NCBI GenBank assembly: GCA_046581755.1
Contig: JAYGFR010000057.1
Coordinates: forward strand, 1-41,284
Direction of reading: 5' to 3'
DNA from: Nitrospinota bacterium
GTDB lineage: Bacteria; UBA8248
DNA length: 41,284 nucleotides
This document shows positions 33,801-36,800 of this stretch, in pieces. Made by a program: the position numbers. How positions within the stretch are numbered: the stretch's first letter is position 1; each line of letters starts with the position of its first letter.

Positions 33801-36800
33801 GATCGCCGGCGCCCTCGAGAAAGCGGGACAGGGCGTCTTCGTCGGTATCGTAAAGGGGGAAACACGAGGCCGGAGCCGCCCCTCCGGGCGCGTGAACCAC
33901 CGCACGCACCAGGAAGGCCGGAATGTTCGTCCGCTCGGGTTTTTCCTCGAAAAAATCCGTCTCCACGATGCGCTCGGCGGTGAGGATGACGCCCTCGGCG
34001 GCGCGCGACATGAGAACGTCCTCGAACGTGCCGCCGTCGATTCGCGCGTTGCCCCCGGCGTCGGCGTGCTGCACGTGGAGGAGGGCCCAGTCCGGCCGGA
34101 TGCGCGGGATCATGTAAACCTTCTTTCCGGTATACGGGTCCTCCGCCTTCCGGAACCCCGTCAGCGCGGGCGTGTCGCTTCCCTCCATCCCGGCCACCGG
34201 CTGGCTTGGCAAGCCGTAGGCCGAGGCGCGAAGACCCGCGATCACGGTGTAGCAGACATGCTCGACGGCCCGGACGGTTCCGCCCTCGACGCCCCGGCGG
34301 TAGGAGGGCGCCATGCCGAACAGGTTCTCGTAGCCGACGTAGCCCGATCGGACCTCGGCCGCCGCCCCCGCCGCGCAGAGCAGATCGATGTCATAGGCCC
34401 CCGCCGTCTTGACGAGGCAAAGGCCGCGCCTCCCCTGCCGCGCAAGCTCCCGCACGAGGGCGGACGGGGTGCGGCTCAGCGAGTTGCCGCCAAGCGCGAT
34501 CAGCTGGCCATCCTCGATCAGGGCGGCCGCCTCTTGAAGGGAATGAAGTTTACTCACGAAATCTCCTGCCGCTTCACCCGGCGAAGCTCGGGGAATTCGG
34601 AATAGCGGACGCCCTCGGGGTCCACCTCGGCGAGAGCGGCCAGCTCTTCCCCGGTGGGAGGAGGCGTCTCGGGAACACCCCCCGCCCAATCGAGCGGAAA
34701 CCCTGTCCGCCCGGCCACCTCCTCCGCCGTGGCGCCGGGGTGGACGCTCTCCAGTTCGAGGCCGCCCGCGCCCATGGCGAGAACCGCCAGCGGGGTGATC
34801 ACCCGCGTCAGGTTTCCCGTCTGGGTCACGAAATCCACCTTCGGGACGAACGTCCGCCGGTCGTACACCGTGCGCCAGATCACGGTGCGCCGCGCCTGCT
34901 CCATGACGACCGAACCCCCGCCCCCGCCGGGGAGCCGCACCTTGGGGGAGGAAGGTTCTCCGATGTAGCTCATGTTCACGCGTCCCGCCCGGTCGATCTG
35001 GGCGCAGCCCAGAAACATGAGATCCATTCCGCCCCGCGCGAAGAGATCGTAGGCGTCCGCGTTCGAGAATATCGCCGCCGCCCCCTGGCAGAGCACCGGG
35101 TCGTTCGTGCTAAAGGGCAGGCGCTCCGGCTTGGGGTCCACCGAGCCCGCGACCTCGATGAGGACCGCGCGCGGGGCATGGAGTTTTTTCGCCAGGAAAA
35201 TGGCCACCATCGGGAGCGGCGAATTCACGCCGTGAAAAACCCGCTCGCCGTCGCGCACCTCGCGGGCCAGGCAAACGGCCATCTGGTCCGCTGCCGCGCG
35301 GGCGGCATCGGCATCGAATGTTGTTTCTTGCCCCAATTTCCCTAGCTCCCCGCCGCATCCGGGGCGGAAGCCCGGTCCGCCGAATCGAGATACTCGGCAA
35401 GGCCCTCGGCGGTCCGGGACAGTTCCATGTAGCGGCGAATCCCGGCCTCGTCCACCCCATAGGCGGGGTGGCAGCTACAGGGTCCCGCCCCGCCCGGCGC
35501 GTGGGCGACGGCGGCCACCATGAACCCCGGCACCGCCGTCAGCTCCGGCTCCTCGGCCATGCGCCCTGGAGGGACGATCTCCTCGGCGGTGACGATGACC
35601 CCCTTCGCCGCCCGCGTCATCTCCACGTCGAAATAGCGCGGACCGTAAATCCTCGCGTTCCCCTCGGCGTCGGCTTCATGGACGTGGAGGATCGCCCAGT
35701 CGGGCCGGAGGGCGGGGATGGCGTGCAACCTCTCGCCGGTGTAGGGATCGTCGATGGTCAGGATGCCGCTTCGCTCCGGTATGTCGCTTCCCTTAAAACC
35801 CCGGATGGGCTGAAAGGGAACGCCGTAGGCTGCGGCCCGCAGCCCCGCGAGGATGCTCGCTCAGGCGTGTTCGGTCAGCCCGGCGAGCCCATTTTCGATG
35901 GATTTCCTGTAGTTGGGCGCGAGGCCGTAGCTGGCCTCGAAGGTGACGATGCCGCTCAGAACGCGGCCCAGCGCGCCCGCCGCGCAAAGCAGGTCCGCAT
36001 CGTAGCCCGGCGACGGCTTGATGAGGGTGAGCCCCTTCCTTCCGGCCCGGACGAGCTCGCGCAAAAGAGCCGATGGCGCCCGGTGGAGCAGGCTCCCGCT
36101 CGTGCTGATCGAATCGCCGTCCTTTACCAGCGCCGCGGCCTCGGCCAGCGTGCAAAGTTTGGTCATGATCGAACCCTCGCGGAAAATCTTCCCCGCCGCA
36201 TGGTAGGGGAATCAAAGGAAAATGTCAGGGGGACGCCCACACTACACACGCCCCCGGCGGCGGCATTATTCGAACAAGGGGCGCGGGCGGCCCGCAAACG
36301 GGGCCGGGCCGTTAATCCAGAAGGACATCCTCCTCGTCCATCAGCATCAGGTAGGGCTCGCCATATTGCTTCGGATCGTCCAGGCCCCACCCCTCGCCCG
36401 AATCCGCCAGCCTGAGGCGGACCCCCCAATCGCCCCCGAATATCAGGTGCACCTCGACGGCCCCCGAATCGGAGACCGGGACATACTTGGCCGGACAGGG
36501 CGACCCGCCATCCGCGCTGCTCCAGCCGGTCACCTCGTAGATGCCTTCCACCTTTCCCATCTCGGAGATTTTGACCCGCCGGATCGGCACGGGCCTCCGG
36601 CGGGCCTCGTATACCATCATCGGCATGTAGGCGCAGTTTTCGTTTTCCTCCACTTCGAGATAGATGGATTCGGTCATGATCAATCGATCACAGCGACGGC
36701 GTTGATTTCGATCAGGCAGCGCGGGTCGGTGGCGAGCTGGACCACCTGGACGGAGGTCGTTGCCGGTTTGTTCTCCCCGAAAAATTCCGCCCAGACCCGG

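What a model noticed while it worked through the whole genome (the two positions that open the first line are those of the whole stretch)
35345..36166. New selenoprotein: family I CoA-transferase alpha subunit
g04156+g04155 are one 274-aa CoA-transferase alpha subunit (GctA/AibA/IpdA-like) with Sec at TEHAU (TGA at C378:35863). A Cys paralog lies two genes away and a second new selenoprotein (YccU) in the same operon.
Evidence so far: TGA in 8 relatives of 5 genera, none in the other paralogs (46); same site and strong GGC-loop hairpin (-12 to -14 kcal/mol) in 5 of 5 checked (55); Cys in paralog and in G010 (41, 59); PDB kin 5mzw, 1poi (72); no Sec NCBIfam (52); search 57 found nothing relevant.
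(Added by a program. Inside this text positions count along the whole contig: contig position 1 is position 1 of the stretch shown here. "Call 12" and the like, gene names such as g00115 and contig names such as C1 are that model's own, and its searches are not shown. The text may have been shortened before it was handed on; [...] marks where a part breaks off. The agent that wrote the report below was given it as the finding of a first reader that could run no searches.)

Follow-up and report, generated by a model that had tools for sequence, protein, structure and literature searches.

The report
New selenoenzyme in the CoA-transferase fold
A gene that databases cut in two at a stop codon is almost certainly one enzyme subunit that reads this codon as selenocysteine, likely at its catalytic site, a kind of selenium enzyme missing from the catalogues I could read.

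Summary
Confirmed and extended. Window 36166-35342 (-) is one 274-codon CoA-transferase-fold alpha subunit whose only internal stop is TGA at codon 102 (E-H-A-U). The same TGA occurs in 18 of 24 same-family genomes and in 49 of 52 more distant, mostly betaproteobacterial loci. Close homologues have Cys. The genome has selA, selB, selC and selD. A hairpin with frozen synonymous positions follows the TGA in 82 of 82 TGA genes and 0 of 14 Cys genes. Added here: Sec102 aligns with Glu105 of the ring-cleaving hydrolase IpdAB, and the beta partner lacks the glutamate that class I CoA-transferases need. So it is probably not a transferase but an acyl-CoA-cleaving enzyme with Sec or Cys as nucleophile; the substrate is unknown. 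The two Sec clades are separated by Cys forms (AU p=0.013) and differ in hairpin apex, suggesting two gains. Correction: the Cys 'form' in G010 is the paralogue, an old copy whose own beta gene lies elsewhere. The family is absent from a 2026 list of 119 prokaryotic selenoprotein families; some candidate lists were not seen. This scan had already noted the family in at least eight other windows.

The parts
35342..36166 (-). CoA-transferase-fold alpha subunit, 274 codons, predicted selenoprotein (Sec102, motif E-H-A-U)
35861..35863 (-). in-frame TGA, codon 102; aligns with Cys of homologues and with IpdA Glu105
35827..35845 (-). candidate bacterial SECIS: stem with GGC loop, loop starting 24 nt after the TGA; synonymous positions frozen
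   Evidence: model constraints
34554..35336 (-). beta subunit, start codon uncertain; Val65 at the GctB Glu54 / AibB Cys56 column; follows the Sec alpha gene in relatives
33733..34557 (-). Cys paralogue of the alpha subunit (TGC at 34254-34252); old paralogue moved here, its own beta gene is on contig C9
33302..33736 (-). YccU-like CoA-binding protein with in-frame TGA at 33352-33350 and hairpin at 33335-33321; second candidate selenoprotein, seen in this genus only

Best explanation
The gene encodes one 274-residue CoA-transferase-fold alpha subunit whose UGA at codon 102 is almost certainly read as selenocysteine, and this Sec likely serves as the catalytic nucleophile of an enzyme predicted to cleave an acyl-CoA rather than to transfer CoA. 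Steps: (1) SelB binds the hairpin 24 nt downstream and delivers Sec-tRNA (strong comparative support, about 0.96; no protein evidence). (2) The alpha chain pairs with the beta chain encoded next to it, as in GctAB, AibAB and IpdAB (inferred from homology and gene order). (3) Sec102 sits at the start of helix 102-114, in the column where IpdA has Glu105, facing the acyl group (alignment shown; geometry inferred, about 0.85). (4) The beta chain lacks the class I glutamate, so the usual glutamyl-CoA route is closed; the selenolate, probably helped by His100, would attack a carbonyl of a beta-keto-type acyl-CoA made by other enzymes, break a C-C bond in an IpdAB-like retro-Claisen step, and form an acyl-selenoester that is then hydrolysed (inferred, about 0.5). 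Most of the family does this with Cys; two lineages appear to have gained Sec separately.
For: Recoding: TGA fixed at one codon in 18 of 24 family genomes and 77 of 80 loci from a genome-wide scan; Cys in 119 of 119 close homologues of the paralogue and 10 of 10 metagenome loci; selA, selB, selD over cut-off and tRNA-Sec at 73.8 bits in G000; selA in 23 of 24 family genomes and 40 of 46 TGA-bearing distant genomes. SECIS rule met by 34 of 34 and 47 of 49 TGA genes, 1 of 14 Cys and 1 of 5 His genes; fixed 5-bp stem in 34 of 34 and 48 of 48 versus 0 of 14; fourfold third positions 0.97 and 0.95 fixed inside versus 0.63 and 0.73 outside. Site: U102 opposite the E/A difference between 6CO6 and 6COJ, 6COJ titled 'IpdAB E105A COCHEA-CoA complex', TM 0.90; the column is Glu in 60 and Cys in 36 of 152 rows. 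Beta: Val or Ile at the Glu54 column in all 97 aligned rows beside Sec or Cys alphas, duplicates included, Glu in the 5 His-type loci; PMC5380842 calls Glu54-beta essential and reports no transferase activity for IpdAB, which lacks it. In 13 natural fusions beta Glu occurs in 3 of 3 with Asn/His at the alpha site and 0 of 4 with Cys/Glu. No second invariant Cys. Relatives' operons bring their own CoA-activating enzymes: family III CoA-transferase, acyl-CoA ligase, crotonase.
Against: No protein-level proof of Sec and no activity data. The role of IpdA Glu105 is recalled from Crowe 2018, which I could not read; only the PDB title and a review's 'retro-Claisen hydrolysis' were seen. No model coordinates were available, so no distance from Sec to substrate was measured. 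AibA has Gly at the site, and 6 of the 13 fusions have neither beta Glu nor alpha Cys/Glu, so the fold supports chemistry without either. This window's beta has Glu64 one residue before the column, though it is Asn in the betaproteobacterial betas. Five TGA-bearing distant MAGs and G022 (67% complete) showed neither selA nor selB. Neighbours differ between lineages and none names a substrate.
Confidence: 0.5

Rival explanations
1. Sec102 is in the active site but acts as general acid or base without a covalent intermediate, in a hydrolysis or decarboxylation of an acyl-CoA.
For: The column swaps between Glu and Cys across the family; a Cys was proposed as general acid in AibAB (PMC7756340).
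Against: AibB Cys56 mutants stayed active; repeated Cys-to-Sec change is more usual at nucleophilic or redox sites (general knowledge).
Confidence: 0.18
2. The enzyme breaks a carbon-sulfur bond of an organosulfur acyl-CoA (thioether type), releasing 3-mercaptopropionate for a neighbouring dioxygenase.
For: A close 3-mercaptopropionate dioxygenase homologue (E 9e-68 to 3uss/4tlf) lies within 6 kb downstream on the same strand in 21 of 35 TGA-bearing distant genomes that have one, after a family III CoA-transferase; this recalls the mdo/act cluster of Variovorax TBEA6, where the thioether-cleaving step is unassigned (PMC6370202).
Against: Those genomes are kin, so synteny may be inherited; 11 of 46 showed no such dioxygenase; G000 has only 29-35% cupin matches; the Cys operons examined show none.
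Confidence: 0.12
3. It is still a CoA or acyl transferase, with the nucleophile moved to the alpha chain (acyl-selenoester ping-pong) or with beta Glu64 standing in for Glu54.
For: Pfam CoA_trans for both chains; databases name the Cys forms glutaconate CoA-transferase subunit A; Glu64 is kept in most betas of this family.
Against: Glu64 is Asn, Ser or Thr in other partners; TIGR02428 and TIGR02429 far below cut-off; operons already carry CoA-activating enzymes.
Confidence: 0.11
4. Sec102 is real but redox-regulatory, metal-binding or structural, not catalytic.
For: Most known selenoproteins are thought to be redox proteins; a CMD/AhpD-like gene is divergent upstream in many family genomes.
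Against: No UxxC motif and no invariant partner Cys; the column is Glu in much of the family.
Confidence: 0.06
5. The TGA is a true stop: a split gene or pseudogene (in betaproteobacteria an ATG follows the TGA and could restart).
For: ATG follows in 45 of 49 distant TGA genes; databases hold the pieces; some MAGs show no selA or selB.
Against: That Met is also in Cys forms and is Ile in 4 of 49; no restart codon follows in this family; always TGA, never TAA or TAG; hairpin only in TGA genes; the break would fall mid-domain.
Confidence: 0.03

Closest known systems
IpdAB, COCHEA-CoA ring-cleaving hydrolase (PDB 6CO6, 6CO9, 6COJ, 6CON)
   Same: Same fold (TM 0.89-0.91); beta chain lacks the class I glutamate; IpdA Glu105 is in the Sec102 column.
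   Different: About 30% identity; Glu rather than Sec; no steroid-pathway genes among the neighbours annotated.
AibA/AibB, 3-methylglutaconyl-CoA decarboxylase (PDB 5MZW-5N03)
   Same: Best sequence match for both chains (E 7e-36, 2e-34); a non-transferase in this fold.
   Different: Gly at the Sec column; Cys56 in beta where this enzyme has Val.
Glutaconate CoA-transferase GctAB (PDB 1POI)
   Same: Alpha/beta layout, Pfam PF01144, TM 0.90.
   Different: Catalytic Glu54-beta absent here; Gln at the Sec column. A third paralogue in G000 (contig C88) keeps the Glu and has His at the alpha site.
Catalogued bacterial selenoprotein families (119, PMC13188914 Table 1)
   Same: In-frame UGA, intragenic SECIS fitting the consensus, Cys homologues, Sec machinery.
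   Different: No CoA-transferase-fold or YccU-like entry; no redox motif here.

Membership tests
Bacterial selenoprotein gene | In-frame UGA aligned with Cys in homologues | tested here: met
Bacterial selenoprotein gene | selA, selB, selC, selD in the genome | tested here: met
   relatives 66, 69, 70 (six incomplete genomes without selA or selB found)
Bacterial selenoprotein gene | SECIS: G in a 3-9 nt loop, 16-37 nt after UGA, conserved | tested here: met
   folding energy alone not above shuffles
Bacterial selenoprotein gene | Selenium in the protein | not testable with these tools
   needs mass spectrometry or 75Se labelling
Class I CoA-transferase | PF01144 fold in alpha and beta chains | tested here: met
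Class I CoA-transferase | Catalytic Glu in the beta chain (GctB Glu54) | tested here: not met
   Val65; role of Glu54
Class I CoA-transferase | CoA transfer activity | not testable with these tools
   no assay
IpdAB hydrolase | Glu105 in the alpha chain | tested here: not met
   Sec in that column
IpdAB hydrolase | Steroid C/D-ring gene context | tested here: not met
   neighbour families; flanks of 4 kb only
AibAB decarboxylase | Cys56 in beta, Gly at the alpha site | tested here: not met

The most novel reading that the evidence does not exclude
An uncatalogued class of non-redox selenoenzymes: a CoA-transferase scaffold whose catalytic centre moved from the beta-chain glutamate to an alpha-chain Cys, upgraded to Sec twice independently with different SECIS apices, and which cleaves C-C or C-S bonds of acyl-CoAs through a covalent selenium intermediate in widespread marine and freshwater bacteria.
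Probability: 0.45. Interest if true: 0.87.

Novelty: new variant of a known kind. Interest (0 to 1): 0.74.

Why it matters
Most catalogued bacterial selenoproteins are redox proteins. Here selenium appears at a probable catalytic site of a carbon-metabolism enzyme fold with no redox motif, which would widen what Sec is used for. One column of one fold carries Glu, Cys or Sec, a natural series for testing why selenium is chosen. The gene is cut in two in public databases, so the enzyme is invisible in annotations of two groups of environmental bacteria. The large Cys subfamily labelled glutaconate CoA-transferase lacks the catalytic glutamate and is probably misannotated; cultured hosts of Cys forms make the function testable.

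Tried and rejected
Rfam found nothing in the window. NCBIfam gave no Sec family and nothing above cut-off for the four operon proteins. Folding energy of the 49 nt after the TGA is not above shuffles and picks another register; I relied on conservation. The z of -2.25 is for a stretch trimmed to the hairpin and is biased. The idea of a recent Sec/Cys back-up duplicate was rejected: 51% identity, separate clades, own beta elsewhere. The promoter scan gave one weak upstream match, not used. RNA-library contigs show presence only, not expression or strand; small-share runs were not used for habitat. Literature searches found no CoA-transferase selenoprotein; searches found no readable account of IpdA Glu105. 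Crowe 2018 and Haft and Tolstoy 2025 are not held; Deng 2026 was not read. No complex prediction was run, since an alpha/beta pass would follow from solved structures. Sequence look-up of earlier findings was blank; the word look-up was not.

Full report
1. Observation. Window 36166-35342 (-) is a 274-codon frame with one internal stop, TGA at codon 102 (35863-35861), in LTEHA-U-ASILA. Pfam CoA_trans spans it and an AlphaFold model with Cys at the site is confident (pLDDT 96). Downstream lie a beta subunit, a Cys paralogue (51% identical) and a YccU-like gene; the last three overlap at their stop and start codons. The TGA is not a sequencing slip: the exact 101-aa piece is on 13 contigs and contigs of two independent RNA libraries cross it unchanged (4 of 15 runs laid).

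2. Distribution. Among 40 relatives, 18 of 24 same-family genomes (5 genera) carry the orthologue with TGA; none of 16 genomes outside the family does. Of the six without, G009 has a piece at a contig end, G005 and G006 have the beta gene, and G010 (closed), G013 and G014 show neither. A scan of 185,579 genomes found 115 relatives; of the best 80, 28 are of this type (labelled Nitrospinota, Nitrospinaceae, Tectomicrobia or 'bacterium'), all with TGA, and 52 are more distant, mostly Betaproteobacteria, 49 with TGA and 3 with Cys. No locus has TAA or TAG at the site. Ten metagenome loci nearest the distant group all have Cys, as do 119 of 119 close homologues of the paralogue. I take the family to be GTDB's UBA8248 (inferred from labels); BSepDB lists that group among the richest in selenoproteins, 48-54 per genome.

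3. Recoding signal. G000 has selA, selB, selD (itself with a TGA) and tRNA-Sec. selA was found in 23 of 24 family genomes and 40 of 46 TGA-bearing distant genomes (50 of 52 loci submitted; one match partial). Of the six without, one has selB; five, and G022 (67% complete), show neither. The three Cys genomes also have selA. Using the bacterial SECIS rule quoted in PMC13188914, 34 of 34 and 47 of 49 distinct TGA genes pass, against 1 of 14 Cys and 1 of 5 His genes. A fixed 5-bp stem starting 17 nt after the TGA is present in 34 of 34 (7-nt apex) and 48 of 48 (4-nt apex; one gene dropped for short flank) and 0 of 14 Cys genes; fourfold-degenerate positions in codons +6 to +11 are 0.97 and 0.95 fixed, against 0.63 and 0.73 nearby, and 0.42 in Cys genes. 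Kin are not independent, and the stem shows no compensatory change. Against: the 49-nt region folds no better than shuffles.

4. Position of the residue. Pairwise and profile alignments put residue 102 on the one residue that differs between 6CO6 and 6COJ; 6COJ is titled 'IpdAB E105A COCHEA-CoA complex'. That Glu105 is catalytic I recall from Crowe 2018, which is not held. Across 152 rows (150 representatives plus the two window proteins) the column is Glu 60, Cys 36, Asn 13, Gly 9, others 28, not covered 6. The residue starts helix 102-114. Lys50, Tyr55 and His100 are conserved in the Sec/Cys group and not in the Glu group; no second Cys is invariant. I wrote this reading down before seeing that the scan had noted it elsewhere.

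5. The beta chain. Class I transferases need Glu54-beta; IpdAB lacks it and showed no transferase activity (PMC5380842), and AibB has Cys there (PMC7756340). The window's beta has Val65; all 97 aligned betas beside Sec or Cys alphas, duplicates included, have Val or Ile, while five His-type loci keep Glu. A Glu one residue earlier is Asn in the betaproteobacterial betas. Of 13 natural fusions, 3 of 3 with Asn/His at the alpha site have beta Glu, 0 of 4 with Cys/Glu do, and 6 have neither, one of them badly aligned. Membership of class I CoA-transferases therefore fails on its defining residue.

6. Context. In this genus, and in G009, the Cys paralogue sits behind the Sec pair; its own beta remains on another contig, whereas closed relatives keep alpha(Cys)-beta-PfkB together. 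Cys-form operons in Bacillus, Xanthobacter and metagenomes add an acyl-CoA ligase, often a family III CoA-transferase and a crotonase, so CoA activation seems supplied by others. Betaproteobacterial Sec operons often end in a family III transferase and a 3-mercaptopropionate dioxygenase homologue, within 6 kb in 21 of 35 genomes that have one; G000 has no close one. This is a lead to organosulfur catabolism (PMC6370202), not a result.

7. History. In a quick 103-row tree (10 of 35 and 12 of 49 Sec rows, sampled Cys and Glu rows, Sec site masked) each Sec group is a clade, and Cys rows separate them, the betaproteobacterial group nesting with Cys forms at 99%. Holding them together is rejected (AU p 0.013). 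With the two hairpin apices this favours two gains; one gain with several losses is not excluded.

8. Mechanism. Shown: the frame, the conserved TGA, the machinery, the frozen hairpin, the alignment to Glu105, the missing beta Glu. Inferred: Sec insertion (0.96), active-site location (0.85), covalent C-C cleavage of a beta-keto-type acyl-CoA (0.5). Rivals: acid/base role 0.18, C-S cleavage 0.12, relocated transferase 0.11, non-catalytic Sec 0.06, true stop 0.03.

9. Novelty. Table 1 of PMC13188914 (119 families, read whole; also section 5 and passages) has no CoA-transferase or YccU entry. BSepDB: passages, outline, one methods section and a search of its supplement, which is stored cut; 2 of 16 'CoA' hits seen, both species names, no PF01144. 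deep-Sep: word search of text and supplements, 4 of 5 'CoA' hits seen, all other families. Haft and Gwadz preprint: passages. PMC6678751, PMC8399759, PMC13692135, PMC5380842, PMC6370202: passages; PMC7756340: first half. Searches found no report. Not seen: Deng 2026 candidates, Haft and Tolstoy 2025, Crowe 2018. Among the best 120 protein hits no full-length sequence exceeds 57% identity although 62-84% orthologues exist; the 83-84% hits are C-terminal pieces. The scan's own notes list this family in eight other windows, one in Syntrophales, which I did not test; they are not independent support.

10. Verdict. A real, well-supported selenoprotein family that the catalogues I read lack, with Sec at a probable catalytic position of a repurposed CoA-transferase fold. 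The recoding mechanism is standard; the chemistry may not be. New variant of a known kind; interest 0.74.

Noticed in passing
window 33302-33736 (-): YccU-like CoA-binding gene with TGA at a conserved Cys and a G-loop hairpin, in 5 of 5 genomes of this genus; Cys in 25 of 25 other full copies. Not in the 119-family list. Weaker case: one genus, 16 codons from the end.
   Followed up: partly
G000:C9:7541-9234 (L160): The beta partner of the Cys paralogue stands without an alpha gene before a PfkB kinase; in closed genomes G010, G011 and G024 the order alpha(Cys)-beta-PfkB is intact. Which beta the moved paralogue uses is open.
   Followed up: partly
L073:8104-8718 and 20 more genomes: 3-mercaptopropionate dioxygenase homologue downstream of the betaproteobacterial Sec operon; an adenylosuccinate-lyase-family gene whose best NCBIfam match is XcbD (below cut-off) is divergent.
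   Followed up: partly
L047-L067, e.g. L049:1390-6300: In many family genomes the Sec pair is followed by an RraA/aldolase-family gene and preceded by a divergent CMD/AhpD gene, a split UxaA-family dehydratase and a 2Fe-2S ferredoxin.
   Followed up: no
window 36312-36842 (-): Upstream co-oriented ORF of about 176 aa with no Pfam or NCBIfam match.
   Followed up: no
window 26370-29207 (-): 945-aa ORF with a long acidic, imperfectly repeated middle.
   Followed up: no
G000:C110:945-1469 (-): Weak cupin-like match with two in-frame TGAs; could be a broken gene or another recoded one.
   Followed up: no
G053:C8:71157-74089: selA and selB look fragmented in this TGA-bearing MAG, and its dioxygenase is split too: perhaps assembly errors.
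   Followed up: no
L071, L073, L077, L113, L117: Loci labelled Streptomyces, Streptomycetaceae, Chitinophaga or Gammaproteobacteria carry the betaproteobacterial-type gene and hairpin; labels or bins may be wrong.
   Followed up: no
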